The position numbers and the translations under genes are program-made. Source: a virus. Taken from it: a DNA stretch of 64,000 bases. The notes beneath the pieces were generated by a model that made no database searches, was not told where the DNA came from, and saw only the letters and a program-made list of their open reading frames with translations. The number at the start of each line of letters is the position of its first letter. Position 1 is the stretch's first letter. The stretch is taken from the IMG/VR virus record IMGVR_UViG_3300020404_000006, one strand, 5' to 3'. Shown one piece after another: positions 11,704 to 62,577 of this stretch.

Positions 11704-11719
11704 TTAATTTCTCTCTAAT

Positions 11720-29675: not shown

Positions 29676-32600
29676 TCAAGCATCTCCTCCGTTGGATCCA
29701 CCATTGCCACCATGAGACCCGCCATTGCCATTACCATTACCATTACCGCCATTGCTACCATTACCGTTCTTTCCTTTAGTTTCTTCTGATTCGTTTTCTG
29801 GTTTTAACATTCCACCATATCCTACACGATATCCTTTAGGAATGGGACGACATTTCTTCATATCATTACAATAGTATTCACCTTCACCACACTTTTTCTT
29901 TCCCTCACTGATGCCTGCTTTCCTTAATCTACTTGCCTGACTAGAGTGCATCTTTACTGCAGCATCTAATTCTTTGGCAATCTTTTTAACACCTTTAGGA
30001 ACTTCTTTTGTTTCAATTACAGGAGTATACTCATCCTTTAAATGATCTGGAATGATGTCAGACACATATCTTTGATGCTCTTTTCTCTGTAAGAGTCTCC
30101 TCCCTCTAGCACCAGCATCCATAGCTTTCATAGGCTGTTTCAATACTGCCTTTTTTCTTTTGACTGCCGCCACCATACCACCAAGTTTCTCAGAAATCAA
30201 CTCACCTGTCTCTGGTTCGTAACCACAGTTCCATGCTCTGAGAGACTTATTGATTCTAGAATCAGGATCTCTTGCAGTCTTAGCTGAGGTAAGTTTCTTT
30301 TTCATACCTTTCATTCTTGCACAGAATGATGCTCTTCTCTTGTTACCTTTCTTTTTACTAGGTGCTTTTAGATCTGAGCCTGGGTTCTCACGTTCGTAAG
30401 ACTTACGACCCTTCTCATTCAAACCACCTGACGAGTTCTTACCAGCCTTTCTTGTCCATGCTGCAGCCTCTGTCATAGAAGTATCAGGAGTGTAGTCTGC
30501 TGCAAGATTTCTATAGTCTGGTTCACCCTTCTTTACTGTTCCCTTTTTCTTTGCCATGTTGGCAGGGTCTTTTGGTTCTTCTTTTGGTTTGCTCCTTGTA
30601 GGATCAATAGAACCCTCAGTAAATTTTACAGGACTTGAGACAGTTCCCTTTCCATCAACGTATCTTGTGACTCTAGGGTTCTTTTCATCATCATTTCTAA
30701 AATCCTTATGTGTCTTCTTCCATTTTTTCCTTGACATCTCAACAGTTTCTTTCAACTTTTTCTTTCTAGACACCATCATATCTTGCAATCTATTTTTCTT
30801 AGAGATTGCAATAGCAGCCTGTTGTGCTGGATTTTTTGCCTCATCCATCGTATTCTTTCTCACATACTCTTTTCCACCAGCCCCTATGTCAGTAACCTTG
30901 ACTCCAATTTTTTTATCAGGATTCAGTTTCACCTTGACTACAGGTTTTTTTGCCTCACCCATCATTTTAGGACCGCCTGCTTTCTTCTCTGCAACTTTCT
31001 TCTCATTAGAATTCTCATTGCCTATGGCAAGATTCCTCATCTTCTGTTTCTTCTGTGCATCCTTATGCTTCTTAGGATCAATCTCAAAGCTATCGTTAAT
31101 CTGAGTAGTAGGATTTAGATTTTCTTTCTTCGCTTTATCTTGTCTCCTCTTCTTTTCTTTCTGTATTCTCTTCAACATAAACTTATTAGATGGCATACTC
31201 TGATCCATCTTACTAAACTTATCGTGAAGTCTATCTAAGTTGATGTCAGTCTGTCTGTGCATCTTAGCATCTTCTAAGATAGCAGCGAATTGTTCTTTTG
31301 TGAGTTTGCCAGTTTTCACGATCTTGTTACCTACAGGATACTTAAGGTCTTTTTTCTTTTCTGGATAATATTTATCAGTAAACCTAGATCTGTTACCAGA
31401 TTCTACTTGTTTCTTTGCAGTTTTCTTTTCCACTCTGATCTTAGCAGCGTCTTTGTAAGACATATCAGGATGGTCTTCGTGTTTGTCAGGATGATTAGGA
31501 TGATCCTTAGATACCTTCTCTTCGTTCACCTTTTTCTTTTTATCCGTACTAACATATGTAGGTTTTGCAGCACCTGACTTTGATTGTTGGCCTGGATCTG
31601 CTGCCTTCTTTCTTCTTGCCGCAGACTTTCTTTCTGCCTTGGTCATACTCGCACGTTTAGATGATGACACACACTTGGGAGTACCCTCGCCTGGTTCGTC
31701 ACTAGCACAGGTTCCACCTGTAACTACGTTGACCCAACCACCTTTACCATCTTTTGATTTAGATTTACCAAACCAATCACGGAGGCCTTCTTCTGTGGTT
31801 AGTGTTCTAGATCTTTTTGGGAGGGAAGATTTAATATTTTTACCAGCACCCTTTATAGGTTTAGTGACTGTCCCTAGTGCCTTGTCCACAGTTCTTCCAA
31901 CCATTCTACCTTTTAGTCCAGCGAGTTCGCCACCAGCGATTGATCCTAAAACTCCTCCAGCTAATCCCCCTGCAGCAGTGCCTGCGAGAGGCACTGCACT
32001 ACCAGCAGCTCCCATGGCAGCAGCACCACCTATACCACCAGCTATACTTCCAGCAGTACCAGCCACGGCACCACCAATCTTTTCAAATGTTCCTTTTTTA
32101 CCTTCATCTACTTTTTCTTGTTCTTTTTTTGATTTTAAATTTGATTTTAAAATTGCTGCTCCAAGTTCAACTATTGGATCCTTCTTCTTTTGATATCTTT
32201 TATCTAATTCATCAATATTTGGACCTCTTCTGTTAGGCATCACACCTAAATTCTCCTTTACTGGTGTCTTAGGAATCATGACAGGTTCAAACATCTTCTT
32301 CTTAGCCCAATCATCTGGAATCATGAGATGTTTTGCTTTAAATTGCATGTGCAAGAGAGTGGTATCGATGCCATTTCGTGAAGCAATTCTCTTCATCAGG
32401 TCATCAACTTCACCGTAGGATGGATAGTCTAATTTTACTAGACCATCTTCCAATTCTTTAACAGCGACTGACTCATTCATCTTTTTCTGTTGGGATTTTT
32501 TCTTGAGGAGGGTTTCTAAAGTGTTTGGGTCTTTAGGATCCTGTAGATCTTTGTATCTAGCAAAGAGACTCTTATCTTTTTTCTCTCCCTTGTACCCTTC

Positions 32601-32789
32601 AGGAAGAGATTTTTTCTTTTCAGGTAATCCTTTGTGTTTAGTAGATGCAAATTTCTTTACATCTCCTTTCTTCATGCTGGTAGCAGCTCTTTGAACCTCA
32701 GGCGACGTTTTCCCTGTCGGGAGAGTGCCTTTTTGATACGCTCTAACAATTCCAAAGAACCTTTGTTGCTTTTTCGAGACTGATGGCAT
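29676..32789 (-). CDS. giant Lys-rich modular protein, putative internal head polyprotein
   Basis: 1037 aa; discrete modules separated by [LIVMF]xE; glycine zipper; C-terminal GN repeat. Confidence 0.6.
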   Translation of the reverse strand: MPSVSKKQQRFFGIVRAYQKGTLPTGKTSPEVQRAATSMKKGDVKKFASTKHKGLPEKKKSLPEGYKGEKKDKSLFARYKDLQDPKDPNTLETLLKKKSQQKKMNESVAVKELEDGLVKLDYPSYGEVDDLMKRIASRNGIDTTLLHMQFKAKHLMIPDDWAKKKMFEPVMIPKTPVKENLGVMPNRRGPNIDELDKRYQKKKDPIVELGAAILKSNLKSKKEQEKVDEGKKGTFEKIGGAVAGTAGSIAGGIGGAAAMGAAGSAVPLAGTAAGGLAGGVLGSIAGGELAGLKGRMVGRTVDKALGTVTKPIKGAGKNIKSSLPKRSRTLTTEEGLRDWFGKSKSKDGKGGWVNVVTGGTCASDEPGEGTPKCVSSSKRASMTKAERKSAARRKKAADPGQQSKSGAAKPTYVSTDKKKKVNEEKVSKDHPNHPDKHEDHPDMSYKDAAKIRVEKKTAKKQVESGNRSRFTDKYYPEKKKDLKYPVGNKIVKTGKLTKEQFAAILEDAKMHRQTDINLDRLHDKFSKMDQSMPSNKFMLKRIQKEKKRRQDKAKKENLNPTTQINDSFEIDPKKHKDAQKKQKMRNLAIGNENSNEKKVAEKKAGGPKMMGEAKKPVVKVKLNPDKKIGVKVTDIGAGGKEYVRKNTMDEAKNPAQQAAIAISKKNRLQDMMVSRKKKLKETVEMSRKKWKKTHKDFRNDDEKNPRVTRYVDGKGTVSSPVKFTEGSIDPTRSKPKEEPKDPANMAKKKGTVKKGEPDYRNLAADYTPDTSMTEAAAWTRKAGKNSSGGLNEKGRKSYERENPGSDLKAPSKKKGNKRRASFCARMKGMKKKLTSAKTARDPDSRINKSLRAWNCGYEPETGELISEKLGGMVAAVKRKKAVLKQPMKAMDAGARGRRLLQRKEHQRYVSDIIPDHLKDEYTPVIETKEVPKGVKKIAKELDAAVKMHSSQASRLRKAGISEGKKKCGEGEYYCNDMKKCRPIPKGYRVGYGGMLKPENESEETKGKNGNGSNGGNGNGNGNGGSHGGNGGSNGGDA

Positions 32790-32790
32790 G

Positions 32791-33156
32791 TCATGTACCT
32801 AATCCTTTTCCTGATTTCATGTTTTCTTTACTACCGTATCTAGCTCTTGTTTCTACATACCCTTTTGTATCATCACCGTAACCCATCTCTTTGGCATCTT
32901 TCTTAAGTTGTTGGTTTGCCTTATGTTGTTTGAGATACTTACCTTCACCATCAGTCTTCTGACCTTTGACTTTCTTCTGTTGATTACTACCACTTCTCAT
33001 GATAGCACCCTTACCATACTGTGCTGTAATGGATTTCTTTACTGCATCTAGTACAGAGTCCTTAGATTTAGATGATGGTTTCTTAGTTCCACCTTTATCA
33101 TATCCCATCTCTTTTTTGAGACGAGTGGCCTCTTGGAAGTCTTGAAAATTCTTCAT
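32791..33156 (-). CDS. putative internal head protein
   Basis: N-terminus MKNFQDFQEA resembles T4 capsid-targeting sequence MKTYQEFIAE; very basic. Confidence 0.6.
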   Translation of the reverse strand: MKNFQDFQEATRLKKEMGYDKGGTKKPSSKSKDSVLDAVKKSITAQYGKGAIMRSGSNQQKKVKGQKTDGEGKYLKQHKANQQLKKDAKEMGYGDDTKGYVETRARYGSKENMKSGKGLGT

Positions 33157-34844
33157 TTCTTTTTACCCAAGTCTTTGATAGATCCTTTGCCTTGTACTAT
33201 TTTAGATTGATACCTACCCATCTCTGGATCTTCATAACCTTTACGATAGTTTTGAGGTGTACCTCTACCAGTTTTGTTTCTGTTTGGTTTGTCACTAGGA
33301 ATAGACTTTCTTATCATCTTTTCGTAGGATCTGTTTGTCTTTCCTCCTGTCTTTCTCATCTTAAACATTGATTCATCATTACTTCTACCCAACTTATCTG
33401 CAACTTTCTTACTTATACCTCTGTCTTCATTACCTTCACCAGCACCAGCATTGTAAGCAGTCATTCTATTCTCATCGAGTGAGGATAGTTCATCTCTCCA
33501 ATTAGAGAAACTACTCATTTGAATTTGTGCTACCTTTTGTTGTAACTTTGTATCTTGTTTGTTGTCTTTTTTGATTAACTTGTTAACCAATGCTCTTTTT
33601 GCGAGTTGTGTTTGTTTCGCTTTTTGTAGTGCCTGTCTTTGATTTGATTGACTGATTGGGTTAGCCATAGCCATTTCATTGACATTGGTATCATCCTGTG
33701 GTATCTTTTTTCTTACCTTCTCACCACCTTTTCTTACAGCAGCGGCAGCAGCTTCTCCAGCAGCATTTATTGCTTGGTTCTTCAGTTCCTGCCCACCGTG
33801 TTTGATAGCGCCTTGGACTATCTTACCACCTGTCTTTCCACCTACCTTGATCCCTGTTCTTACAGCAGCTTTACCTAGTCCTGATACTACTGCACCAAGG
33901 CCTTCATCAACAAACTCTTCATTTTTCATTGATTCTTTCTTCTCTGCTTCTTTCTTCTTCAGTGCTACCTTACGGAATGTTAGATCAGTGCGACTGCCGC
34001 TGTCCATTCTACCCTGTGCTTCTGGTTTCTTAGAACCACCAGCAGGTTGAGGACCAGCACCACCATCACTCACTCTTCTACCATGAGTGTACTTAGCACC
34101 ACTCATCTTAGAATCACCAGAGATCATCTTACCAGCATTAGATCTGCTGTCCTGATACTGCTTCTCAGTCTGTCCGTGCTTTCCTTGATAGATTTCATCA
34201 ATACTATAATCAACTTCTTCTTTCTTAGAACTGTTACCCCAGTTCTTTGCACCCTTCTTTCTGCACTTGGATAATGCTCCAGACGCATATGCACTTGGCC
34301 ATACATCATAACGTGCTTTTACCTTATGATAACAGGCATCCTTTGTACCACTACCCTTACCTTTCTTATCTTTAACTTCGTTTAATTCTTCTGACTCTTC
34401 TTCTAGAAGAGCCTCCATAACCATATCACTAGCACCCCAAAGATCATTCTCATTGATAAATGCTTCTACTAATTCTTCATCAGTCCATCTGTCTATATCA
34501 TATCCTTCTTCTGCAAGACCTGTTAACCAAGTATCGAATGTCTCTCTGTAATCTTCTTTCTCTAGAAGTTTAAGTGTCTCCCACTCGGCTCTATACTTAC
34601 CTTCCTTCTTCAATTTCTTTTGTTGCCAAGAGTCTAAAGCGTCAACAGGACGACCTCCTTTTGACATCACATCTTTTTTATGTGCTTGAAACTCAGCAGC
34701 TGACTTTGCTCTGTCTGCATCTCTTTGTTTGTTCTTAGCAGCCAGTGCCTCGTTCTTTTTCTTTATATTATCCTCATTCTTTTGTAGATTAGGATGTAAA
34801 GGCGCTTCATAAATTGCAGAATAGGCTTCAGAAAGTTTGTCCAT
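33153..34844 (-). CDS. modular putative internal head polyprotein
   Basis: KDACYHKVKARYDVWPSAYASGAL..CRK module; many xxE junctions; start MDKLSEAY. Confidence 0.6.
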   Translation of the reverse strand: MDKLSEAYSAIYEAPLHPNLQKNEDNIKKKNEALAAKNKQRDADRAKSAAEFQAHKKDVMSKGGRPVDALDSWQQKKLKKEGKYRAEWETLKLLEKEDYRETFDTWLTGLAEEGYDIDRWTDEELVEAFINENDLWGASDMVMEALLEEESEELNEVKDKKGKGSGTKDACYHKVKARYDVWPSAYASGALSKCRKKGAKNWGNSSKKEEVDYSIDEIYQGKHGQTEKQYQDSRSNAGKMISGDSKMSGAKYTHGRRVSDGGAGPQPAGGSKKPEAQGRMDSGSRTDLTFRKVALKKKEAEKKESMKNEEFVDEGLGAVVSGLGKAAVRTGIKVGGKTGGKIVQGAIKHGGQELKNQAINAAGEAAAAAVRKGGEKVRKKIPQDDTNVNEMAMANPISQSNQRQALQKAKQTQLAKRALVNKLIKKDNKQDTKLQQKVAQIQMSSFSNWRDELSSLDENRMTAYNAGAGEGNEDRGISKKVADKLGRSNDESMFKMRKTGGKTNRSYEKMIRKSIPSDKPNRNKTGRGTPQNYRKGYEDPEMGRYQSKIVQGKGSIKDLGKKK

Positions 34845-34875
34845 TTTGAAAGGATACAGTATAGCTATCATAACG

Positions 34876-34896
34876 TATTTATTATATCAATAAATA
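34876..34896. promoter_or_regulatory. back-to-back T4-type late promoters
   Basis: TAAATA on minus (34876-34881) and plus (34891-34896) at the strand switch. Confidence 0.65.
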
Positions 34897-34925: not shown

Positions 34926-37607
34926 ATGGCTCGTCAGGGAATATTTACTGGATTCACACCGAATGATGGTCTGGGAGATTCCCTTGCCTTGGGTGCAACC
35001 AAAGTAAATCAAAACTTTACAGAGATTTATACCACGTTTGGTGACGGTAACAACCTTAGTGTCAACGCAGGCAGTGCTGGTACTTGGACGAAGGCAGGGA
35101 ACTCTGGAATATACACAAGTAAGAACGTAGGTATCGGCACAACCGATCCTAGTGCTGCTTTGTTTGTATCAGGTAACGTTCAATTAACAGGTATTACAAC
35201 TGGAACATTCGTTGGAGATGGTTCTGGTCTTACAGGTGTGACTGCAACAGGTTCTGGTGTTGTCATTAAAGATAGTGGTGTTCTAGTTGGTGTTGCACAG
35301 AGTCTTAACTTCGATAGAAACTTAGATATTACACAAGTATTTGGTGGTAATGTCACAGTTTCTGCTGCTGACACAGTAGGATTTGCATTTACTTCTGGAT
35401 TCTCTACCACATCTGGTTACTCAAACGTTGCTGGAGTATCTACTACATCAGGAACTGCTGGGTTTGCTGACACGGCAACACTGGCACTGACTGCAAACTT
35501 CGCCTCAGTCGCTGGTATCGTAACATACGCATCTGCATCTGGAGTTTCAACTAACTCAGGAGTAGCCGAGTATGCAAAGGTGGCTGGTGTTGCAACATAC
35601 ACTGGTAACACAGGGTTTGCAACCATGGCAGGGTATGCACACACAGCTGGTATCGCCTCAGTCGCACAGAATTTAACAGGAACTCCATCAATAGTTGTTG
35701 ATAATGTCAATGGTCTTGGAATTGTAACCTTCCCAGGCCAAGGTAGTAAGATGCGTTTCGACTTTGACGCAACAGGTGATCTACCTCAAGCAACCTCTTG
35801 GAGAGGTATGTTTGCATGGGCAAATAATACTAAGACTGCATACGTTTCCAGTGGAACCACAATGGGTGGTTACAATGGTTGGAGACAGATACTTCACGGT
35901 GATCATCTAGGTAACTACTTCACTGTGGGTGTTGTAACTGCATCTAAGTTTGCTGGTGATGGATCTGAACTTACAAACTTACCATCAACAGATAGTATTT
36001 GGAGATCAAACTCCACTGGTATTCACACTCTCAGTAACGTTGGTCTTGGAACTACTAATACAGAGTCATATAAACTGAAGGTTGTAGGCAATCTTAAACT
36101 TTCTGGTCGTTTAGATGGTACTGCCACAGATAACTTACTACCATTCTTATGGTCAACCTACGCATCTCTACCATCATCATCCACATATCATGGTCAGTTT
36201 GCTCACGTTCACGAAACAGGTAAGGCATACTATGCACACGCTGGTTGGAATGAACTAGTCAACAAGAATCAAGATCAATCAGTTGGAACTGGAACTGAAA
36301 ACTATAGAGTTGGTGTTGTAACTGGAATATCATTTACAGGTGATGGTTCTGGTTTAAGTAATATTTCTGTTGCATACGCAGCATCTGCTGGTATCGCCTC
36401 TCTTTCACAAGGACTAGAGGGTAAACCAGACATCTTAGTTGCTAACATCAACTGTACTGGTATTGTTACTGGTGCAGTATTCGTTGGAGATGGTTCTGGT
36501 CTTACAGGTATTACTGCATCTGGTAGTGGTATCATCATTAGAGAAGGTGGCACACTCGTAGGAACTATTGGAACTGTAAACTTCGGAACTGGTTTCAGTG
36601 TTTCCCCAGCATCTGCTGGTGTTGTAACAGTCACCACATCAGGTGGTGGCGGTGGTGGATCTGTCTTTACTACCAGAATCGTTGGTATTCAAACAGATAA
36701 CGTAATACCATTCTACTACGACAATTACAGTGACTTCCCATCATCATCTACCTATCATGGTGCAGTTGCTCACTCCCATGACACTGGTAGATTATATTTT
36801 GCACACGCTGGATGGAAAGAATTAGTCAACAGAGAGGCAGATGGCACAGTAGGAACTGGAACTGACAACTACAGAGTTGGAGTTGTTACAGGTACATCTT
36901 TCGCTGCCTCATCATTCATTTCTGTTGGTGGAAATCAAATAACTCAACTGGATATCACACAGTATGAGACTGCATACTCATGGGGCAACCATGCACTTGC
37001 TGGATATCTAACAGGTCTAGGTGGACAAAACTTAGGTAACTTATCTAATGTTTCCAGTGCATCTCCAAATAGTAGTGATGTATTGACATGGAGTGGATCA
37101 GAGTGGGCACCAGCCGCACCTACAGGTGGAACTGGTTCTGGAATCATAATCAAAGAAGAGGGAACTCAAGTTGCATCAGGGATTACTTCGATTGACTTCG
37201 TTGGATCTACCGTAAGTGCAACTGCAACTGGTTCAAACGCAACTATCACAGTCACTGCTGGTACTGGTGGAGGTGGTTCTATTTCCACAACTGGTGTAGG
37301 AACATACACTGCATCTGCTGGTGTGGAACAACAGATAGATTCATTCTCTAAACTCAGTTACTCTGGTGCAGAGTACACATTGATGATCGGTCTAGGAACA
37401 TTCAGACAATCACAAAAACTTCTCGTGATGCACGATGGAACCACAGCATTCTCACAAGAGTATGCTATTATGTTCTCCCCAGAACAACAGGTATCAGTTG
37501 CTTCAACAGTAAGTGGCAACAACGTTTTAGTTAAAGTCACTCCAGAGGCAGGGATATCTGGATTATCTACATACAGATTTGTCAAGACTTACATTGAGAA
37601 CTTATGA
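34926..37607 (+). CDS. tail fibre protein with gp9/gp10-like N-terminus and repeated His-rich modules
   Basis: NDGLGDSL..GATKVN.NFTEIY N-terminus; Gly/Thr/Ser-rich; GDGSGLTG repeats. Confidence 0.8.
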   Translation: MARQGIFTGFTPNDGLGDSLALGATKVNQNFTEIYTTFGDGNNLSVNAGSAGTWTKAGNSGIYTSKNVGIGTTDPSAALFVSGNVQLTGITTGTFVGDGSGLTGVTATGSGVVIKDSGVLVGVAQSLNFDRNLDITQVFGGNVTVSAADTVGFAFTSGFSTTSGYSNVAGVSTTSGTAGFADTATLALTANFASVAGIVTYASASGVSTNSGVAEYAKVAGVATYTGNTGFATMAGYAHTAGIASVAQNLTGTPSIVVDNVNGLGIVTFPGQGSKMRFDFDATGDLPQATSWRGMFAWANNTKTAYVSSGTTMGGYNGWRQILHGDHLGNYFTVGVVTASKFAGDGSELTNLPSTDSIWRSNSTGIHTLSNVGLGTTNTESYKLKVVGNLKLSGRLDGTATDNLLPFLWSTYASLPSSSTYHGQFAHVHETGKAYYAHAGWNELVNKNQDQSVGTGTENYRVGVVTGISFTGDGSGLSNISVAYAASAGIASLSQGLEGKPDILVANINCTGIVTGAVFVGDGSGLTGITASGSGIIIREGGTLVGTIGTVNFGTGFSVSPASAGVVTVTTSGGGGGGSVFTTRIVGIQTDNVIPFYYDNYSDFPSSSTYHGAVAHSHDTGRLYFAHAGWKELVNREADGTVGTGTDNYRVGVVTGTSFAASSFISVGGNQITQLDITQYETAYSWGNHALAGYLTGLGGQNLGNLSNVSSASPNSSDVLTWSGSEWAPAAPTGGTGSGIIIKEEGTQVASGITSIDFVGSTVSATATGSNATITVTAGTGGGGSISTTGVGTYTASAGVEQQIDSFSKLSYSGAEYTLMIGLGTFRQSQKLLVMHDGTTAFSQEYAIMFSPEQQVSVASTVSGNNVLVKVTPEAGISGLSTYRFVKTYIENL

Positions 37608-39820
37608 TTCACACTAGTACGAACACTCTTGATAGGACAGGGTTAGCTGTCAAACCAACTGGAGCTAACGACAAGAAGGCATACTCTATCAAATGTTATA
37701 CCAAAGATGACTGGGTATTCATTCATGAAGAACTAGAAAAAGATGGTTCACTGGAAGATAATATTCCAGATCCATCAATAGTGTGTCCCGATAAAAAGGA
37801 ACATAGTGATACCAGAGCAACCTACATGTTGACTGATGCGGAAGCAGAAGACCTAAGAAAACATGAGAGGGTAGAGTTTGTCTGTATTGATTATGACGCT
37901 TACCCAGGCAACTACGCTCCCGATCCAAAAGATATTGTTGCTAGTATACAAAAGTTTGGTAGAGGAACAGGGTCGGTATCCAACTACAGAGCATGGAATA
38001 CTTCACCGACAGGCACTAGACCACCTACATCTCAGGCTGGTATAGGTGCATCAGATAAGAACAGAACTGGATATCAGATACTAAGACACACACAGAAAGA
38101 GAATCCTTGGGATGCAACATCCACTGGACTAACTCAATCTGATCATATTATTATAGAGACAGAGACAAAACAATTAGGCGATGGCACTGGTGTAGATGCA
38201 ATCGTGTCTGATGATGGTTTCTGGATTGCACACCCAGAATTTGTAACAACTGATGATGATCCTGTAGGATACTCAACAGGAAACGCATTGACATGGAGTG
38301 GTATATCTACAACACCAGGCACATGTGGTGTCCTAGATGTACTTCTTGATGGTCCATATTATATTGACCCAGACTGGTTCAATGCAGATCCAGGCAATAG
38401 ATTGACTCAACGTTGGGATGGTACAACAGTCCCAGTAGAGTCTGTAGCAAGAGCATGGTGGTCTGATTCAAGTCAGAGATCAGTAGGATTCTCTACCATT
38501 GGTACTACTAGTGGTTTCAGTGCTTTCTACAGTAGACAAAGTTGCAATGGAAGTAATACACAGAAACCAACCAACGGATCTGACCACGGAACTCAATGTG
38601 CTGGTCAAGTATTTGGTAAAAATTATGGATCTGCATACAACTGTAACAAGTGGGTGTTAAATGGTATTGGTGGTTCCAATGCTGGAATCAATGGTAGTCA
38701 ATTTGATATACAAAAACTCTTCCACTTATATAAACCAAACTATGATAGACATTCTGCTGTTACTGGCAAACAAAATGATACTAAAAACCCAACACTGTCA
38801 AGTAATAGTTGGGGATATAGGGACGATGCCATTCATGATGGTGGATTCTACTGGTATAGACCATCATCTATAGATGGATTAGTGCCTGGCACATCATATA
38901 CAAGTGGTAGTGAACCAGAATTCATTGATTTACTAGGTGCATATGGTGATGGTAGTAGAATGAAAGGAGAGATGGTAGATAGTTCTGTAACCGCATCTGG
39001 TAAAGAACTGTCTGACGCTGGAGTGATCTTCGTCTGTGCTGCTGGTAATAGTAATCAAACTCAGGTAAGGCCTGGCGATCTTGATTTTGACAACTATTGG
39101 GCTACAGCTGCTCAAGGAAATGATTCTCCTCTATCAGCGAGCACTCATTTTGAATTTGGTTTACAATGTTATAACACTATCAATAGAAGAGGGTGGCCAC
39201 AGTCATTAGGTAAAACTACATCTGGTTTATCTACTGCTGGAACTGAGTATGCTGCTATCAATATTGGTGCGTTAGATGATCAAATTGTAAGTGGTGGACT
39301 GGGTGGTAACACCACAGACTATAAAGAAAAGAAAGTTTCCTATAGTGACATGGGAACAGGTATTGATTGTTATGGTGCTGCTGATGACACAATGACAGCA
39401 GATGGTAGAGCGTCATCTCTTACATATCCACACCCAGAAACATATAGTGGGTTGACTTTAACTCCGTATGATATTGATTTTGGTGGCACTAGTTCTGGAT
39501 GTCCTACATGTGCTGGATGGATCACTACCAAACTACAATATAATAGAGATTGGACTTACACTGATGTAAGAAACTGGTTAAATAACAGTTGTGGTGCTCA
39601 ATCTCCTGACAGATTTTACTATGGTGATAACATAACAGGATTCACATCGACAACAGCTGCATGGGAGGATATGTATTCCGTCCAGATGTATGGTCAAGGA
39701 CCTGTTGTAATATGGGATGCTCCTACTGGTTCACCTACTGAACCAAAGAAACCTGAGATTAGAATCACAAACTCACCAAACTTAAAGTTTAGTGGTGGAG
39801 TTGAGATAAAATTCTCCTAA
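37604..39820 (+). CDS. subtilisin-like S8 serine peptidase, probably virion-associated
   Basis: catalytic DDG, HGTQCAG, AAGN, GGTSSGCP. Confidence 0.85.
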   Translation: MIHTSTNTLDRTGLAVKPTGANDKKAYSIKCYTKDDWVFIHEELEKDGSLEDNIPDPSIVCPDKKEHSDTRATYMLTDAEAEDLRKHERVEFVCIDYDAYPGNYAPDPKDIVASIQKFGRGTGSVSNYRAWNTSPTGTRPPTSQAGIGASDKNRTGYQILRHTQKENPWDATSTGLTQSDHIIIETETKQLGDGTGVDAIVSDDGFWIAHPEFVTTDDDPVGYSTGNALTWSGISTTPGTCGVLDVLLDGPYYIDPDWFNADPGNRLTQRWDGTTVPVESVARAWWSDSSQRSVGFSTIGTTSGFSAFYSRQSCNGSNTQKPTNGSDHGTQCAGQVFGKNYGSAYNCNKWVLNGIGGSNAGINGSQFDIQKLFHLYKPNYDRHSAVTGKQNDTKNPTLSSNSWGYRDDAIHDGGFYWYRPSSIDGLVPGTSYTSGSEPEFIDLLGAYGDGSRMKGEMVDSSVTASGKELSDAGVIFVCAAGNSNQTQVRPGDLDFDNYWATAAQGNDSPLSASTHFEFGLQCYNTINRRGWPQSLGKTTSGLSTAGTEYAAINIGALDDQIVSGGLGGNTTDYKEKKVSYSDMGTGIDCYGAADDTMTADGRASSLTYPHPETYSGLTLTPYDIDFGGTSSGCPTCAGWITTKLQYNRDWTYTDVRNWLNNSCGAQSPDRFYYGDNITGFTSTTAAWEDMYSVQMYGQGPVVIWDAPTGSPTEPKKPEIRITNSPNLKFSGGVEIKFS

Positions 39821-53034: not shown

Positions 53035-53428
53035 TGCTGACTACTCGTTCGACTCCTAGTATAACAGATGATTGATTATTCTGCAACCCTTGTATAACTT
53101 TCTGACCCATAGGACTGACGAGAACTGATATGACACCGATACCACCAGCGATTGTCCACATCTTCTTCTCCATCATCCTCAGACGTTCTTCTACCTTCAT
53201 TATATCTCTCTCACATCCTGTCTTAATCTCTTTAGTCGAACGGTTAAGTTCCCTATGAAGAGATTCCACCTTCTCGAATAGTACGGCATCTATCCTATCT
53301 TGCTTGTCCAGCTTTTCATTATGAACCGCAAGCAGTTGTCCCATCTTTACGGAGTTATCCTGTAAAGAATCTACTACTTTTTCTAATCTTTCTAATATAG
53401 CTGTGTTGATACTGGCGTTTTCGCTCAT
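52991..53428 (-). CDS. coiled-coil protein with C-terminal TM
   Basis: heptad-rich, LAVH motif, terminal hydrophobic helix. Confidence 0.6.
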   Translation of the reverse strand: MSENASINTAILERLEKVVDSLQDNSVKMGQLLAVHNEKLDKQDRIDAVLFEKVESLHRELNRSTKEIKTGCERDIMKVEERLRMMEKKMWTIAGGIGVISVLVSPMGQKVIQGLQNNQSSVILGVERVVSIEPSRQQIHKSGIV

Positions 53429-53592
53429 TTCTTTTTACGTTTTGAGGTTGCTTTTGCAGCGTTGTACCATCTTCTAATCATTCCACCAAAAGGTAAATCA
53501 TATCCAGCAACAGGACCTTTGGAATCTGCAGCAGAAGTAAAACCACCTGTACCAGCGGTCATCATCTCATTAAATTCCTTAAAAGTCTTCAT
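53425..53592 (-). CDS. 55-aa putative internal head peptide
   Basis: manual translation MKTFKEFNEMMTAGTGG...KRKKK; first 7 aa identical to T4 IPI N-terminus as I recall it. Confidence 0.6.
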   Translation of the reverse strand: MKTFKEFNEMMTAGTGGFTSAADSKGPVAGYDLPFGGMIRRWYNAAKATSKRKKK

Positions 53593-58542: not shown

Positions 58543-60291
58543 TTAGTAACCTCTCTTATATTTAGCGGATTCATCTTCTGGGTTGATGATGATTGTATTT
58601 TTACCACTCATAGGTTTGATTTCTTTTACCTTATCTGGATACTTCTTATCTATCTCCCATAGAAATTCTTCACGCCAATCAGAGTATGACTCATTCTTTT
58701 GCTTAAGTTTGTTGATTGCTCTTTCTCTCGCTTCATCCTCCTTCATCTGTTTATAGGTTCTCATTTTTCTCCTACCCATTCTCTTTGCTTCCTGTTCTGC
58801 TTTGATGAAGTTAGTTGCCTCCTTGACTTCTGTTTTTTTAGGTCTTCCTTGTGTGGTTTTCTTAGTTTTGTTCTCAGGTTTTTGGGCATTATATGCAGCT
58901 TGTGCTTTCCTATATCCCGCTTCATCACCTTTGTAACTTCTTACGTTAGGTCTCTTAAGTTTCTGTTCTTTTGGTTTCTCTTCTTTTTTCTTGGGTACTG
59001 TTGTGGCCTTGACAGTGATTGCCTTACTTTGTGGAGTCGCATCATCTTTCTTTCCTTGTTTCCTCATTGCAGCCATCAATCTATCTGCGCCTGCATCAGC
59101 CTTCTTCCTTCTCTTACTTTCTTTTTCGGCCGCTGAGATAGCTCCCTTCACTATAGGAGAATCGGTCTCTCCACCTTTCTTATCAGTGGATGTAAGTTTA
59201 GGTTGATCGGGTTTAGAACCAGTAAGTTTTTTATTCTTCTTTGGAAATAGTTTATCGAAGTTTTTCTTCGCTTCATCCGATGCTGATCCTGTTGTTGCTA
59301 CTTTTCCGCCTGGAGATCTTACAATACTACCACCCTTAATAGATTCTCCAGAGTCTTTCTCTACCTGTTTCCTAGCAGCATCGTCTTTTGATGCTACCTT
59401 CTCTTGTTTCTTGACTATTTTATTATCAGGCGATGTATTGAACTTCTTCAGCGCCGTAGAGTCTATACTCTGTTGTGGTGACTTGGATGTTACATTACTG
59501 GTTTGTTTCCTTGGTTTTTCTTTATACTGTCTATACTTATCCTCTGCCGTCTTTCTTGCATCTTGTCTCCTTTTCTGACCTTCTCTATATCTTTTTTCTT
59601 GCTTAACCTCAGGCTTAACAGCATCACCTGTGATAGTCCTACCGCCTGTAGTTTTTACTGTTTTATCCTTAACTCCAAGTGCTTTCTTTCCTATTGATTT
59701 GACAGCTTTACCTAGTAAACTACTTACTCCAGTTGAACCAGTTTTACCAGTTTGTTGTCCTGATCCTGTAACTTTACTTCTCTTTGGTAAATCTTGTTGT
59801 TCTTGTTCTTTCTTTTTCCTTTTGTAAGCATCAATACCACCAGCCACGGTAGCTCTACCTCTACGAGCAAGAGCTCTCATGTTAGTTCCAAGTCCAGTTC
59901 CAGTGGTTGCATCCTCTGTATCTGGTCTGAATTTTGCAAATCCTGCTACAGTTCCGCCTGCTGCGGAAAGTTTTCTTTGTCCTGACTTAGATCCTGCAGC
60001 GGCAGCGGCTTTTGCCTTATTCCTATCCAAAGTTGCCTGTATTCCAGGCTTCTTTGATCCATCAGATCTTCTATATCCAGGCCTCTGAGGCCTCTGAGGA
60101 ATACTAGGAGCCTTCGATGGGGTGGCACCACCCTCCATGTTCCTTGGAGGTACAGGAGATCTAGCTCCTTGAGTGGTGGAATTAGTAGTAACTTGAGTTT
60201 TATTCTTTTGGGCAAAACGTTTTGAGACATCCACCCCAACAATCTCAGTTATTGGAGACTGTTCATATTCAAATTGTTCAAAGCTTTTCAT
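58543..60291 (-). CDS. very basic putative internal head protein
   Basis: N-terminus MKSFEQF; low complexity Lys/Gly/Thr; C-terminal W.EIDKK...KPMSGKNTIIINP module. Confidence 0.6.
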   Translation of the reverse strand: MKSFEQFEYEQSPITEIVGVDVSKRFAQKNKTQVTTNSTTQGARSPVPPRNMEGGATPSKAPSIPQRPQRPGYRRSDGSKKPGIQATLDRNKAKAAAAAGSKSGQRKLSAAGGTVAGFAKFRPDTEDATTGTGLGTNMRALARRGRATVAGGIDAYKRKKKEQEQQDLPKRSKVTGSGQQTGKTGSTGVSSLLGKAVKSIGKKALGVKDKTVKTTGGRTITGDAVKPEVKQEKRYREGQKRRQDARKTAEDKYRQYKEKPRKQTSNVTSKSPQQSIDSTALKKFNTSPDNKIVKKQEKVASKDDAARKQVEKDSGESIKGGSIVRSPGGKVATTGSASDEAKKNFDKLFPKKNKKLTGSKPDQPKLTSTDKKGGETDSPIVKGAISAAEKESKRRKKADAGADRLMAAMRKQGKKDDATPQSKAITVKATTVPKKKEEKPKEQKLKRPNVRSYKGDEAGYRKAQAAYNAQKPENKTKKTTQGRPKKTEVKEATNFIKAEQEAKRMGRRKMRTYKQMKEDEARERAINKLKQKNESYSDWREEFLWEIDKKYPDKVKEIKPMSGKNTIIINPEDESAKYKRGY

Positions 60292-60298
60292 GTGTATC

Positions 60299-61135
60299 CT
60301 ACTTTTGGATGGATTTGTGTGCCTTAAAAATGGAACTTGCGTGTTTTTCGATTACCTCTTCTGAGATAGTTTCTTCTACTTCTTCCTCTGGTTTTGAGAA
60401 TACAACTGGACTCTTGACATTGAAACTCTCGTTCTTGGGACGGCAATCATTTACCAGTTTACCACCTTTCATTTTCATACCCACCTTCTTATGGGTGTCC
60501 CAACAATCCTTTGCTTTACCCTCTTCAATCTCAACTTCTACCTCTTCTTTCTTCATCGCCTTTCCGATTGCCTTACGACGATTCTTAAGGTATGAATCAG
60601 AATCATCTACATCACCATCATTATCGACATCATCATCTTCTTTTCCGACTGGATCTAATTTCTTTTTCTTTTTCTTTCCTTCCTCTAAAGGAGATACTTT
60701 ATACCTAGTACCAGACATCTCTCCAAGAGTAGTAAGGTTTGCTGCAACCTGATCCCAGAGTCTATCTACCAGTTTCTCATCTGGATTACCTAGTGGTTCT
60801 GGAGTAACAACATCAGTAATCTCATGAGTTAAATTACCATCTGCATCATGCAATTCAACAGATTCAGCGTTGTTTAATTGACCTTTCCCTCTGATCTTAT
60901 CAGCGACATTACCGACTGTACTAGCAACATTAGCAACCTTCCCTACAGTACTGGCAACCTTTCCTACCTTACTAGCAACAGCCATTCCCTTAGCGAGCAA
61001 GGGGGCAACAGCTAGAGGTGCGAGCTCATCTATTTGTTCTTTATCATCATGCTCGATGACTTTACCATCAGCATCTTTTTGATGATGTTCATACATTGAC
61101 TTATAAGCGTCAACCAGTTTTGAGTCGTCAGTCAT
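60299..61135 (-). CDS. modular putative internal head protein
   Basis: LVDAY..MYE N-terminus, LDPVGKEDDDVDNDGD EF-hand-like acidic repeat, KDCW..KKVG module. Confidence 0.6.
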   Translation of the reverse strand: MTDDSKLVDAYKSMYEHHQKDADGKVIEHDDKEQIDELAPLAVAPLLAKGMAVASKVGKVASTVGKVANVASTVGNVADKIRGKGQLNNAESVELHDADGNLTHEITDVVTPEPLGNPDEKLVDRLWDQVAANLTTLGEMSGTRYKVSPLEEGKKKKKKLDPVGKEDDDVDNDGDVDDSDSYLKNRRKAIGKAMKKEEVEVEIEEGKAKDCWDTHKKVGMKMKGGKLVNDCRPKNESFNVKSPVVFSKPEEEVEETISEEVIEKHASSIFKAHKSIQK

Positions 61136-61173
61136 GGTGGTAAATTAATTAGATAGTCCTTGTCTATCCTTAT

Positions 61174-62541
61174 TTATCCCTTTCCAACCTTATAAGGTAT
61201 AGATGTATCATTATACTTTGTGCCAGGTCCACTAGCAGGGTCATTAGGATTCTTAACCTTCTTACCATCATAGTAAGACCCAGTGGTGATTGGTTTTATA
61301 ATTGGATCATCATTCCACTTTTTATCACCTTGGCCTGGTGTCATTCTCTGCATGTATTGTCTATACTCATCCGTGCCTACATCATATGCCTCTGTCAAAT
61401 CTTTCAACCATGCTTTGTACATAGTAGACTCTGGAGTTTGTACGATAACATGATTCGCACCTCTCCTAGTAATTCTACCCCTGACTCCAGTGTTTACATT
61501 CTCTACTAATGATCCTACTTTGAAACATTGTTCTTTTAGATATGCAACTCTTAGTCCAAAAGGATCTAGTTTAGGTGCATACTGCCATGTCTCAGAGGAT
61601 AATGATCCTCTAAGTTGATCATCAGTGGCTCCCATAGATTTTTGGATAAGGTTGAAGAGATTCTTCTTCTCCATATTACCTAAGTTAGGGATACCCTTTG
61701 CAAACCCTTTGAAGTCATCCTTTGCTACTGCATCTCTCATCTTAGATGCAGACATACCCTCAATACCTTCGGAGTCTGGGTCTCTTGCACCAGCAGATAT
61801 GACTTGAAGATCCTCAAATTCGTACAAATCACCATTATATTTTTGTGCAAGACTCTGGAATTCAGATAGTCTATCCTGTCCTACAACTATTGTTATTGCT
61901 TTGTATCCTAGATTGAAGGCACCTGTAAGAACATCAAATATAGTTCTTGCATTAGGATCATCTTTGATATCCTCTTCATAATCTGGGAACATCTTCCTCA
62001 TATATTCTATCTTCGCACCAGGCTGTAGAGGATTCTTCTTAGAATCTACACTACGACTTGGATATACCTTCAAGTCATATCCCAATCTACCAGCTTCTGC
62101 AGCTGCTTTGTCTAATAATTTTTGATGACCTACGGTTGGTGGGTTGAATCTACCAAATACAACTACTGCACCTTCACTAGTAGGTGCTCCCATTACCTCT
62201 GCTGTCTGTTGATCAGATTCACCAGGCTCAGGTGATTTAGTTGCGGTAGCAGAAGGATCCTCCTTTGGTTTTGGTTTTGGAGCGGGTGCAACTGCAGCAG
62301 GTGCTTTCTTCTGAGCAGTGGGTTTTTCTGGTGTGGCCACCTTAGTAGATTTTGGATCCTCGGTATCGGCCGCACCTCCTCCTCCTGTGTATTTAAGTTT
62401 ACCGTTTACTGTCTTTGCTACAAAATTTCCTTTGGCATCATACCATCCTCCATGACCGTCGCCCTTTAATCCCTTGAGTTTAGCCTCAGTGGATGCAGCA
62501 GTCTTTACAGCTTCTGTTAAAAATTGACCGAAGGATTTCAC
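61174..62541 (-). CDS. cytidylyltransferase/NadD-like nucleotidyltransferase with capsid-targeting-like N-terminus
   Basis: FGRFNPPTVGH, KKNPL, VVGQDR, SASKMR; GTG start at 62541 gives MKSFGQFLTEA. Confidence 0.8.
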   Translation of the reverse strand: MKSFGQFLTEAVKTAASTEAKLKGLKGDGHGGWYDAKGNFVAKTVNGKLKYTGGGGAADTEDPKSTKVATPEKPTAQKKAPAAVAPAPKPKPKEDPSATATKSPEPGESDQQTAEVMGAPTSEGAVVVFGRFNPPTVGHQKLLDKAAAEAGRLGYDLKVYPSRSVDSKKNPLQPGAKIEYMRKMFPDYEEDIKDDPNARTIFDVLTGAFNLGYKAITIVVGQDRLSEFQSLAQKYNGDLYEFEDLQVISAGARDPDSEGIEGMSASKMRDAVAKDDFKGFAKGIPNLGNMEKKNLFNLIQKSMGATDDQLRGSLSSETWQYAPKLDPFGLRVAYLKEQCFKVGSLVENVNTGVRGRITRRGANHVIVQTPESTMYKAWLKDLTEAYDVGTDEYRQYMQRMTPGQGDKKWNDDPIIKPITTGSYYDGKKVKNPNDPASGPGTKYNDTSIPYKVGKG

Positions 62542-62577
62542 AAAATTCAATAGACGAGTACAGTTTTATTTATTCCA

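What the first reader, a model, noticed from the sequence alone, without database searches (positions are those of the whole stretch)
29676..34844. Giant injected-cargo polyproteins: modules separated by prohead-protease-type sites
Seen: the 1037-aa and ~560-aa proteins are strings of unrelated basic modules, most starting right after [LIVMF]-x-E: KMNE, PVKE, KVDE, LTTEE, KVNEE, AILE, MMGE, TMDE, KFTE, SMTE, LISE, GISE; and AIYE, ELNE, SIDE, FVDE, NVNE, SLDE. The 121-aa gene between them starts MKNFQDFQEA. Established: T4 internal proteins carry a ~10-aa capsid-targeting sequence (MKTYQEFIAE), are cut after xxE by gp21, and are ejected into the host. Inference: these are cassettes of many small peptides released in the prohead and injected, a possible modular anti-defence or host-takeover delivery system with exchangeable modules.
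Basis: partly seen in the sequence, partly recalled or inferred. Interest (0 to 1): 0.82.

Follow-up and report, generated by a model that had tools for sequence, protein, structure and literature searches.

The report
Cyanophage head-cargo polyproteins with protease-site junctions
Three linked late genes of a T4-like ocean cyanophage encode chains of small, mostly basic mini-proteins, each preceded by the short hydrophobic-x-Glu signal that the T4-type head protease cuts, so they are probably loaded into the capsid and chopped into about 20 peptides, although no cut has yet been measured.

Summary
The window is a T4-like cyanomyovirus, nearest isolate S-SSM7. It carries three translationally coupled genes of 572, 121 and 1037 aa, and all the listed motifs are present.

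Within a single sequence the [LIVMF]-x-E excess is modest. The comparative evidence is strong:
- In more than 500 homologues the same mini-modules occur in many orders and in different ORFs.
- On 115 non-redundant upstream contexts, the residue just before a module is Glu in 89% (background 7%). The residue two before it is L/I/V/M/F in 71% (background 17%).
- Inside modules the motif is nearly absent.
- The capsid protein's maturation site (LTE|A) aligns exactly with T4's.
- The 121-aa protein and three other genes in the window start with T4-type capsid-targeting leaders.
- DUF6321 lacks the Glu prefix where it is a stand-alone gene, in phages where no T4-type protease was found.
- Homologues were found by mass spectrometry in purified virions of S-SM1 and S-SCSM1.

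Packaging and cutting by the prohead protease is therefore well supported but inferred. Ejection into the host and an anti-defence role remain untested. Module functions stay unknown: only DUF3008 and DUF6321 matched, and no fold matched. This scan has already reported the same system in other cyanophage genomes. The papers I searched do not describe it.

The parts
33153..34871 (-). 572-aa precursor (S-SSM7 gp114 / T4-GC1371 orthologue). The alternative start is Met10 at 34844.
   Evidence: ORF. 2748 homologues. Synteny with SSSM7_234.
34876..34883 (-). AATAAATA box, one mismatch from the T4 late-promoter consensus TATAAATA, 4 nt before ATG-34871. If it is used, translation would start at Met10.
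   Evidence: Sequence read. Its role as a promoter is inference only.
34806..34871 (-). Conserved N-terminal leader of the 572-aa protein, ending ...LSEAYSAIYE|A. The 278-aa protein at 60299-61135 has the same type (..LVDAYKSMYE|H).
   Evidence: Conserved in all homologues read; homology to many of them ends exactly at residue 22.
34377..34805 (-). Acidic, conserved, probably helical domain (aa 23-165, net -12) holding 8 interior hydrophobic-x-Glu motifs. It may be a scaffold-like or targeting pro-region that is degraded.
   Evidence: Charge. Conservation. Motif positions. The role is inferred.
34194..34376 (-). Module 'M3' (KDKKGKGSGTKDACYHKVK..WPSAYASGAL.KCRK), preceded by ELNE|.
   Evidence: 101 unique copies. 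50 foreign upstream contexts, 31 with Glu exactly at that offset, the rest shifted by one because of an indel.
33903..34193 (-). Module 'IYQGKHGQTEKQYQD...', preceded by SIDE|. Homology with S-SSM7 gp114 stops exactly here.
   Evidence: The same module follows hydrophobic-x-Glu in many IMG/VR polyproteins of up to 834 aa.
33675..33902 (-). Gly-rich amphipathic module (GLGAVVSGLGKAAVRTGIKVGGKTGG...), preceded by FVDE|.
   Evidence: The motif is conserved in close homologues only.
33471..33674 (-). Gln/Lys-rich helical module, preceded by NVNE| and ending in the recurrent linker FSNWRDELSSLDE|.
33156..33470 (-). C-terminal module of the 572-aa family (NRMTAYNAG...GSIKDLGKKK), always preceded by L/I-x-E.
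   Evidence: 59 unique copies; the motif is present in 100% at the border column. Among cultured phages it is found only in S-SSM7 and S-SSM6a.
33130..33156 (-). T4-type capsid-targeting leader MKNFQDFQE| of the 121-aa protein.
   Evidence: Conserved as MKNFQxFQE| in stand-alone homologues. Replaced by ..VIE|, VVE|, VDE|, FSE|, IDE|, FGE| when the module is fused behind others. T4 leaders MKTFKEF.. and MKTYQEFIAE| were read from the T4 record.
32794..33129 (-). Predicted mature 112-aa basic protein (net +16, ATRLKKEMGYDKGG...GKGLGT).
   Evidence: The AlphaFold model shows helices joined by disordered Gly/Lys loops, pLDDT 74.6, with no fold match.
29676..32789 (-). 1037-aa precursor (T4-GC119 'structural protein' family; SSSM7_236 orthologue).
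   Evidence: GC119 was detected in S-SM1 virions with 13 peptides. The S-SCSM1 homologue is annotated as a virion protein.
32619..32789 (-). DUF3008-like module at the N-terminus (no leader), ending ...KGLPE|.
   Evidence: Pfam E 8.5e-5, 23.1 bits against a cut-off of 24. In one homologue the module is internal, after ..IRNE|.
32286..32471 (-). Module B (SVAVKELEDGLVKLDYPSYGEVDDLMKRIA...DDWAKKKMFE|), preceded by KMNE|.
   Evidence: It occurs at the N-terminus of other family members. Homology ends at residue 168.
31788..32102 (-). Uncharged Gly/Ala-rich 'glycine-zipper-like' module, preceded by KVDE|. Absent from the S-SSM7 orthologue.
   Evidence: A membrane-active role is inference only.
31521..31787 (-). 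Module C (EGLRDWFGKSKSKDGKGGWVNVVTGGTCASD...), preceded by TLTTE| with the hydrophobic residue at P4.
   Evidence: 67 unique copies. Border motif present in 76%; Glu at the fixed offset in 32 of 33 non-redundant contexts.
30225..30467 (-). DUF6321 module, preceded by SMTE|. Usually the C-terminal module of the family; internal here.
   Evidence: Pfam E 5e-24. 2571 clusters at 50% identity. 87 foreign upstream contexts, 72 with Glu. Model pLDDT 80, no fold match.
29904..30011 (-). Module G (TKEVPKGVKKIAKELDAAVKMH...RLRKAGISE|), preceded by PVIE|.
   Evidence: three of four foreign contexts keep Glu and the hydrophobic residue.
29679..29903 (-). Cys-rich module H (KKKCGEGEYYCNDMKKCRPIPKGY...) with an Asn/Gly tail, preceded by GISE|. 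In most relatives it is the N-terminal module and starts directly at Met.
   Evidence: N-terminal copies lack the Glu, so the Glu belongs to the junction and not to the module.
58543..62541 (-). Second cargo cluster, outside the finding. It holds a 582-aa Lys-rich protein (MKSFEQFEYE..), a 278-aa protein that shares modules and the leader type with the first cluster, and a cytidylyltransferase/NMNAT-like enzyme (T4-GC190) probably starting at GTG 62541 as MKSFGQFLTE|A.
   Evidence: The enzyme family was detected in virions of three cyanophages.
53425..53592 (-). 55-aa ORF with the leader MKTFKEFNE|, followed by a copy of the N-terminal arm of mature gp23.
   Evidence: E 4e-9 against S-SSM7 gp23 residues 53-92.

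Best explanation
The three genes encode precursors of internal head proteins.

1. They are made late and enter the assembling prohead core. Entry would use T4-type N-terminal leaders (the 121-aa protein), a second leader type (the 572-aa protein), or some still unknown contact (the 1037-aa protein).
2. When the gp21-type prohead protease (Peptidase_S77) is activated, it cuts after Glu in hydrophobic-x-Glu at every module junction. This releases about 20 small, mostly basic peptides. The acidic leaders, linkers and the acidic pro-domain are trimmed or lost.
3. The basic pieces stay with the packed DNA in the mature head. By analogy with T4 internal proteins they leave with the DNA at infection.

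Shown here: gene structure, module shuffling, the junction motif, leader similarity to T4, the conserved gp23 site, and published virion presence of homologues.

Inferred: packaging route, cleavage, ejection.

Unknown: what each module does. Candidates are charge neutralisation or condensation of DNA, protection of incoming DNA, and membrane insertion by the Gly-rich modules.
For: Module shuffling:
- 45 module orders occur among 120 family representatives, and modules move between the three ORFs.
- Between this phage and S-SSM7, homology breaks exactly at SIDE|.

Junction motif:
- At a fixed offset, P1 is Glu in 89% and P3 is LIVMF in 71% of 115 non-redundant contexts. An independent set of 89 contexts repeated this.
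- The motif is almost absent inside modules.
- Junction Glu codons are GAA 11 and GAG 10 with no shared DNA word, so selection acts on the protein.

Match to the protease:
- S-SSM7 encodes gp21 (Peptidase_S77, E 1e-37).
- Its gp23 site ..SLTE|ASP aligns with T4 ..FLTE|AEI.

Leaders:
- Four genes in the window start with MK[NST]F..F...E; five shuffles gave none.
- T4 IPI, IPII and IPIII leaders were read.
- The aromatic residues at positions 4 and 7 that T4 needs for targeting (PMC9026906) are kept.

Natural experiment on DUF6321:
- It is bare (MAKTP-AWQRK..) in 10 contigs where no S77 was found. Five of these are 86-98% complete genomes of 54-103 kb.
- It is also bare in the T7-like P-SCSP1u, next to the capsid gene.
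- It carries a leader or a hydrophobic-x-Glu prefix in contigs of large genomes. Seven of those 15 fragments, and the only complete genome, encode S77.

Virion presence:
- GC119 gave 13 peptides in S-SM1 virions (PMC3037559 Table S8).
- S-SCSM1 gp029 is annotated as a virion protein.
- The leader-bearing enzyme GC190 was found in three virion proteomes.
Against: - No cleavage product, neo-N-terminus or band size has been measured for any family member.
- The window's own genome is not held, so gp21 and gp23 were read from the nearest isolate (86% nucleotide identity over 45% of the locus).
- The 1037-aa protein has no targeting leader.
- Single-sequence enrichment is only z 2.3-2.7.
- About 10-30% of junctions have the hydrophobic residue at P4 or lack it, and a few have Gln or Lys at P1.
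- Several junctions of the 1037-aa protein have no independent support, because no foreign context was found for them.
- The protease co-occurrence test rests on small numbers and on fragmentary contigs.
- In S-SSM7 and here, the locus lies among tail-fibre genes, not head genes.
Confidence: 0.72

Rival explanations
1. The precursors are packaged and cut as above, but the pieces work only inside the capsid, as scaffold-core filler, DNA counter-ions or pressure modulators. They are not effectors in the host, so the 'injected anti-defence cassette' reading would be wrong.
For: - The pieces are Lys-rich with pI around 10 and have no enzyme domain.
- The models are helices with disordered loops and no fold match.
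- In T4, lysines of internal proteins contact DNA phosphates (PMC3012670).
- Bare DUF6321 genes lie directly after capsid genes in small phages.
Against: - Rapid module turnover (45 orders in 120 representatives) looks more like an arms race than bulk counter-ions.
- Some modules are very strongly conserved in sequence: DUF6321 has 35 invariant columns out of 81, which argues for a specific partner.
- A packaged enzyme with the same leader (GC190) points to action in the host.
Confidence: 0.3
2. The proteins are not cut. The hydrophobic-x-Glu elements with their acidic linkers are docking or spacer elements of long, beads-on-a-string virion proteins.
For: - No cleavage data exist.
- Trypsin-based virion proteomics cannot tell whole chains from cut chains.
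- Some junctions deviate from the motif.
Against: - The motif equals the protease's site in gp23 of the same lineage.
- It disappears when modules stand alone in phages where no S77 was found.
- N-terminal copies of modules H and DUF3008 lack it.
- Stand-alone copies of the 121-aa module replace the linker with a T4-type cleavable leader.
Confidence: 0.12
3. Cutting is done by another protease, for example the subtilisin-like protease encoded 2.7 kb away (37604-39820) or a host enzyme, and the proteins belong to the tail-fibre or baseplate module where the genes lie.
For: - The locus is flanked by fibre genes and a PF00082 protease in both this phage and S-SSM7.
- There is a weak PHROG 'tail associated lysin' hit, E 6.5e-4.
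Against: - In most cyanomyoviruses the GC119 gene lies next to the terminase and head genes, with no subtilase nearby.
- Cutting after Glu with a hydrophobic P3 is the T4 gp21 rule, whereas subtilisins as a class prefer hydrophobic P1 (general knowledge).
- T4-type head-targeting leaders are on sister proteins.
Confidence: 0.05

Closest known systems
Phage T4 internal proteins IPI, IPII, IPIII (and Alt) with the capsid-targeting sequence, processed by the gp21 prohead protease
   Same: - An N-terminal leader of about 10 aa with aromatic residues at positions 4 and 7: MKNFQDFQE| and MKSFGQFLTE| here, against MKTFKEF.. and MKTYQEFIAE| in T4.
- A cut after hydrophobic-x-Glu.
- Basic cargo.
- A hypervariable gene set.
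- A non-structural enzyme carried in the same way (Alt in T4, the GC190 enzyme here).
   Different: - Here many cargo units are strung in one polypeptide and separated by internal cut sites, whereas in T4 each internal protein is a separate gene.
- P3 is broader (V, M, F as well as L and I).
- There is no sequence homology to the T4 cargo.
- The largest precursor has no N-terminal leader.
- Cleavage and ejection are not shown.
Processed head, inner-body and ejection proteins of giant phages phiKZ, 201phi2-1 and SPN3US
   Same: Many packaged proteins are cut after Glu by a gp21-related protease, with multiple sites per precursor. The cargo is ejected into the host (PMC9026906, PMC5694885).
   Different: - According to the cited review those cuts follow Glu with few other determinants. 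From my own knowledge, P3 there is small (Ser/Ala/Gly).
- There, propeptides are removed from large folded proteins. Here a chain of mini-modules would be separated.
Polyvalent proteins of phages and conjugative elements (Iyer et al. 2017, PMC5512222)
   Same: Multi-domain, mosaic proteins that are delivered with the DNA and thought to be processed into separate units.
   Different: Those proteins carry 2-15 mostly enzymatic domains and usually their own zincin-like peptidase. Here the modules are 35-110 aa with no enzyme signature, no peptidase domain was detected by Pfam, and cutting would be done in trans by the head protease. Cyanophages are not mentioned in that paper.
Tandem small basic genes beside the capsid gene in small marine phages (IMG/VR contigs; P-SCSP1u PSCSP1u_00016; pelagiphages)
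   Same: The same DUF6321 module (about 70-80% identical) occurs in the head-gene region.
   Different: It is encoded as a separate ~84-aa gene starting MAKTP, with no Glu prefix, in genomes where no Peptidase_S77 was found.

Membership tests
T4-type capsid-targeted internal proteins (CTS + gp21 processing) | N-terminal leader of about 10 aa, M-K-x-aromatic-x-x-F/hydrophobic, ending in hydrophobic-x-Glu | tested here: met
   Met for the 121-aa protein (MKNFQDFQE|A) and for three other genes of the window, compared with T4 leaders read. Not met for the 1037-aa protein, which starts directly with DUF3008. The 572-aa protein has a different conserved leader.
T4-type capsid-targeted internal proteins (CTS + gp21 processing) | A gp21-type prohead protease (Peptidase_S77) encoded by the same phage | tested here: inconclusive
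   The window's genome is not held. The nearest isolate S-SSM7 has it (E 1e-37). Seven of 15 related large contigs have it.
T4-type capsid-targeted internal proteins (CTS + gp21 processing) | Cleavage after Glu of hydrophobic-x-Glu in the prohead | not testable with these tools
   Only the conserved motif at junctions and the aligned gp23 site are available. No proteomic termini are available.
T4-type capsid-targeted internal proteins (CTS + gp21 processing) | Presence in mature virions | tested here: met
   Shown by published mass spectrometry for homologues, not for this phage: GC119 in S-SM1 (13 peptides) and S-SCSM1 gp029. There are no data for the 572-aa and 121-aa families.
T4-type capsid-targeted internal proteins (CTS + gp21 processing) | Ejection into the host with the DNA | not testable with these tools
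   Inference from T4 only (PMC3012670).
T4-type capsid-targeted internal proteins (CTS + gp21 processing) | Sequence homology of the mature part to IPI, IPII, IPIII or Alt | tested here: not met
   No Pfam or PHROG hit to internal-protein families. The resemblance is in the system, not in the cargo.
Pfam DUF6321 (PF19846) | Score above the gathering threshold over the full model | tested here: met
   85.1 bits against a cut-off of 28.5, model positions 1-72 of 72.
Pfam DUF3008 (PF11450) | Score above the gathering threshold | tested here: inconclusive
   23.1 bits against a cut-off of 24, model positions 3-55 of 57.
Polyvalent proteins (Iyer et al. 2017) | Several effector or enzyme domains, usually with an own zincin-like (MPTase) peptidase domain | tested here: not met
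   No peptidase or enzyme domain in any module at E up to 1, apart from one sub-threshold Tox-REase-3 hit (17.6 bits against a cut-off of 25).
phiKZ-type processed head proteins | Cleavage motif with a small residue (S/A/G) at P3 before Glu | tested here: not met
   P3 is V/I/L/M/F in 71% of junctions. The phiKZ motif itself is quoted from general knowledge and from PMC9026906.

The most novel reading that the evidence does not exclude
T4-like ocean cyanophages carry a combinatorial delivery system. Dozens of interchangeable mini-proteins are strung into polyproteins, loaded into the head through T4-type leaders and leader-like linkers, and separated by the head protease. They are then injected with the DNA as a first-minute toolkit, for example for DNA protection, membrane passage, and NAD-related counter-defence through the co-packaged nucleotidyltransferase. 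The same mini-proteins are exchanged with unrelated podoviruses and pelagiphages, which encode them as single genes beside the capsid gene.
Probability: 0.3. Interest if true: 0.85.

Novelty: new variant of a known kind. Interest (0 to 1): 0.72.

Why it matters
T4-like cyanophages are among the most abundant viruses in the sea. The DUF6321 module alone falls into 2571 protein clusters at 50% identity and occurs in 520 cultured phage records, yet every protein is annotated 'hypothetical'.

If the model holds, it would:
- explain a large, fast-evolving part of cyanophage genomes as packaged cargo;
- extend the T4 targeting-and-processing rule to a polyprotein format not described for tailed phages in the papers searched;
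- give exact, testable cut sites;
- offer a natural leader and linker set for loading foreign proteins into cyanophage heads;
- give direct access to what a cyanophage brings into the cell before any gene is expressed.

Tried and rejected
Searches that gave no function:
- Pfam and PHROGs on whole proteins and on 18 single modules gave only DUF6321, borderline DUF3008 and unnamed PHROGs.
- The sub-threshold Tox-REase-3, DivIC and other hits were dismissed.
- ESM Atlas returned only unnamed viral clusters.
- AlphaFold models of the 121-aa protein (pLDDT 74.6) and of DUF6321 (pLDDT 80.1) had no Foldseek match at E up to 0.001. The best VIA-align Z was 4.4, a generic helical hairpin.

Methods that were too coarse or unavailable:
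- BLAST HSP ends as module borders were too fuzzy in Lys-rich sequence. I replaced them with anchored fixed-offset counts.
- The window's own genome is not held, and the nearest held record is a 13-kb fragment without the protease.

Literature:
- Searches for DUF6321, DUF3008, cyanophage with capsid targeting sequence, polyprotein, and semi-tryptic virion data found no description of this system.
- The P-SCSP1u cryo-EM paper does not mention its DUF6321 gene.

Ideas considered and rejected:
- A DNA-level recombination signal at junctions. There is no shared codons or DNA word.
- The Glu as part of each module's fold. It is absent from N-terminal and stand-alone copies.
- The neighbouring subtilisin as the processing enzyme.

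Full report
**What the window is.** The 64-kb window is from a T4-like cyanomyovirus (Kyanoviridae). The nearest isolates are Synechococcus phages S-SSM7 and S-SSM6a, at 86-87% nucleotide identity over 45% of the locus. Gene order matches S-SSM7 182-201 kb. The exact 572-aa protein occurs on 16 public contigs, the longest 190 kb. The window's own assembly is not held.

**The observation.**
- Three same-strand ORFs are present: 33153-34871 (572 aa), 32791-33156 (121 aa) and 29676-32789 (1037 aa).
- They are translationally coupled. The first stop overlaps the second start (ATGA), and one base lies before the third start.
- An AATAAATA box, one mismatch from the T4 late consensus, lies 4 nt before ATG-34871. 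The upstream nine residues are conserved in homologues, so I leave this open.
- All listed motifs are there.
- The predicted pieces are basic, pI 8.8-10.6. The exceptions are the short leaders, a near-neutral module B, and an acidic domain at aa 23-165 of the 572-aa protein (net -12).

**Chance within one sequence.**
- Residue shuffles give 21 observed against 12.3 expected [LIVMF]-x-E in the 1037-aa protein. For the 572-aa protein the figures are 14 against 8.4.
- Thirty-nine ordinary ORFs of the window also run slightly high, with a ratio of 1.18 and a maximum z of 2.55. The two proteins reach z 2.7 and 2.3.
- Alone this would not carry the claim.

**Comparative evidence.** Three searches returned 6738, 2748 and 188 homologues.
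- *Shuffling.* Local alignment shows the same short modules in different orders and in different ORFs. There are 45 module orders among 120 representatives of the T4-GC119 family. The 121-aa module appears fused behind DUF6321 or behind other modules in other phages. Between this phage and S-SSM7, homology of the 572-aa protein stops exactly at SIDE|/NIDE| and resumes at the C-terminal module.
- *The junction.* Reading the sequences with the motif marked, nearly every conserved module is directly preceded by hydrophobic-x-Glu, whatever lies upstream.
- *Unbiased count.* I counted at a fixed offset from an anchor inside six module types, using only upstream contexts that differ at more than 3 of 9 positions. 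This gave P1 = Glu in 102 of 115 and P3 = L/I/V/M/F in 71%. Neighbouring positions showed 8-32% hydrophobic residues and the background was 16.6%. P1' is mostly G, A, E, K or S.
- *Independent sample.* A set drawn from different 50%-identity clusters (89 contexts before DUF6321) gave 80% and 69%. Most exceptions were shifted by one residue.
- *Interior versus border.* In alignments of the six modules, the motif reaches 25% frequency only in the column before the module (47-100%). The single interior exception is GGLNE in DUF6321.
- *Protein level, not DNA.* Junction Glu codons are GAA 11 and GAG 10 with no shared nucleotide word, so the constraint is on the protein and not on a DNA recombination signal.

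**Link to the head protease.**
- S-SSM7 encodes gp21 (Peptidase_S77, E 1e-37) between the portal and scaffold genes.
- Its gp23 N-terminus ..AFQSLTE|ASPTN aligns residue for residue with T4 ..AFGSFLTE|AEIGG. That the T4 cut falls after this Glu (Glu65/Ala66) is from my own knowledge. The T4 record only says gp23 is cleaved by gp21.

**Leaders.**
- The T4 leaders, read from the T4 record, are MKTFKEF...ITE| (IPI) and MKTYQEFIAE| (IPII, IPIII).
- The review PMC9026906 states that positions 4 and 7 carry targeting and positions 8 and 10 carry processing.
- The 121-aa protein starts MKNFQDFQE|A. In stand-alone homologues this leader is conserved (MKNFQxFQE|; also MKTFNDFLTE|). Where the module is fused behind others, the leader is replaced by linkers ending VIE|, VVE|, VDE|, FSE|, IDE| or FGE|.
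- Four genes in the window start with this leader type, and five shuffled windows gave none. They are the 121-aa protein, a 582-aa Lys-rich protein (60291), a 55-aa ORF (53592, MKTFKEFNE|), and the cytidylyltransferase/NMNAT-like enzyme T4-GC190.
- Read from the GTG used in S-SSM7, the enzyme starts MKSFGQFLTE|A.
- That enzyme family has been found in purified virions of S-SM1, S-SCSM1 and S-CBWM1, and the authors could not explain why (PMC9602691, PMC3037559). A targeting leader explains it.

**A natural experiment.** DUF6321 occurs in three states:
- as a bare ~84-aa gene starting MAK[TS]P-AW[QT]RKEGK;
- with a T4-type leader (MKTYKEFLE|.., MKTFSEYLNE|DWQKK.., MKNFAQYIEE|DWQKK..);
- inside 460-960-aa polyproteins after hydrophobic-x-Glu.

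Peptidase_S77 was found in 0 of 10 contigs with the bare form. Five of these are 86-98% complete genomes of 54-103 kb. It was found in 7 of 15 contigs with the prefixed forms. All 15 are pieces of large genomes, and the only complete one (186 kb) has it. The bare gene lies just downstream of the major capsid gene in these small phages (phrog_371, E 1e-22). The same holds in the T7-like Prochlorococcus phage P-SCSP1u. So the Glu prefix is a property of the junction in phages with the T4-type protease, and the module itself is tied to head genes across phage families. The numbers are small and the contigs incomplete, so I treat this as support and not proof.

**Virion presence.** T4-GC119, the family of the 1037-aa protein, is listed as a structural protein with 13 peptides in S-SM1 virions. 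Its gene length varies from 276 to 2985 nt among 16 cyanophages. The S-SCSM1 homologue gp029 is annotated as a virion protein from mass spectrometry. There are no such data for the 572-aa and 121-aa families. Among cultured phages, the C-terminal module of the 572-aa protein occurs only in S-SSM7 and S-SSM6a.

**What remains unknown.**
- No module has a known function.
- The two models have no structural relatives.
- The 1037-aa protein has no N-terminal leader, so its route into the head is open. Some relatives carry leader-like linkers inside the chain (..LSFQQFME|K....QKTFDQFVSE|S..).
- Uncharged Gly-rich stretches in both large proteins could insert into membranes, but that is conjecture.
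- Nothing here tests ejection or anti-defence activity.

**Comparison with known systems.**
- The mechanism is that of T4 internal proteins and Alt: a leader, gp21 and Glu cuts. However, many units are strung in one precursor and the cargo is unrelated.
- Giant-phage head proteins are also cut after Glu, but by removal of propeptides from large proteins.
- Polyvalent proteins are mosaics of enzyme domains, usually with their own peptidase.

I file this as a new variant of a known kind. Notes from this scan report the same system in several other cyanophage genomes. They are not independent evidence, and none includes measured cleavage. The searched literature does not describe the system.

Noticed in passing
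window 53425-53592 (-): A 55-aa ORF starting MKTFKEFNE|, whose first seven residues are identical to the T4 IPI leader. The rest is 43% identical to the N-terminal arm of mature gp23 (S-SSM7 residues 53-92, E 4e-9) and ends in a Lys-rich tail. It may be a head-targeted mimic of the capsid protein's N-arm.
   Followed up: partly
window 61174-62550 (-): The cytidylyltransferase/NMNAT-like enzyme (T4-GC190) most likely starts at GTG 62541. That gives a 10-aa T4-type leader, MKSFGQFLTE|A, whose FLTE|A equals the T4 gp23 cut site. This would explain published detection of the enzyme in virions. A packaged NAD-pathway enzyme could matter for NAD-depleting host defences.
   Followed up: partly
window 58543-61135 (-): A second cargo cluster. 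The 582-aa very basic protein has a T4-type leader and a C-terminal ..SDWREEFLWE| junction, but is not enriched in the motif. The 278-aa protein shares the ..AY..MYE| leader, an HH.KD..GKVIEHD element and a CWDTH module with the first cluster. S-SSM7 annotates the 582-aa gene as two ORFs.
   Followed up: partly
loci L118, L141, L154, L122 (IMG/VR) and L156 (P-SCSP1u 11536-11790): In small phages where no Peptidase_S77 was found, DUF6321 is a separate ~84-aa gene just after the major capsid gene. In L118 it sits in a row of six small 'MAKK...' basic genes, a gene-by-gene counterpart of the polyprotein. In most of these bare copies the interior GGLNE becomes GGLNA, Q, K or R. This hints that the interior Glu of the cyanomyovirus copies may itself be a cut site.
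   Followed up: partly
proteins P0408, P0436, P0453: A subgroup has ..SIIQ|LAAWT, with Gln instead of Glu before DUF6321, and repeated ..ELNTI(L/Q).. elements. This may be a lineage with a different junction rule. I could not read its protease or capsid site.
   Followed up: no
window 31900-32090 (-), 33790-33902 (-), 60890-61020 (-): Uncharged Gly/Ala/Ser-rich 'glycine-zipper-like' stretches occur in the 1037-aa (aa ~236-300), 572-aa (aa 324-360) and 278-aa proteins. They are candidates for membrane insertion during DNA entry. The S-SSM7 orthologue of the 1037-aa protein lacks this module, but its gp114 carries one.
   Followed up: no
window 34844-34883 (-): The start of the 572-aa gene is ambiguous. 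A late-promoter-like AATAAATA lies 4 nt before ATG-34871, which favours Met10 at 34844. However, the nine residues before Met10 (MIAILYPFK) are conserved in homologues.
   Followed up: partly
window 30640-30800 (-): Residues 662-717 of the 1037-aa protein give a sub-threshold Pfam hit to Tox-REase-3 (E 0.005, 17.6 bits against a cut-off of 25). It is probably noise in Lys-rich sequence.
   Followed up: no
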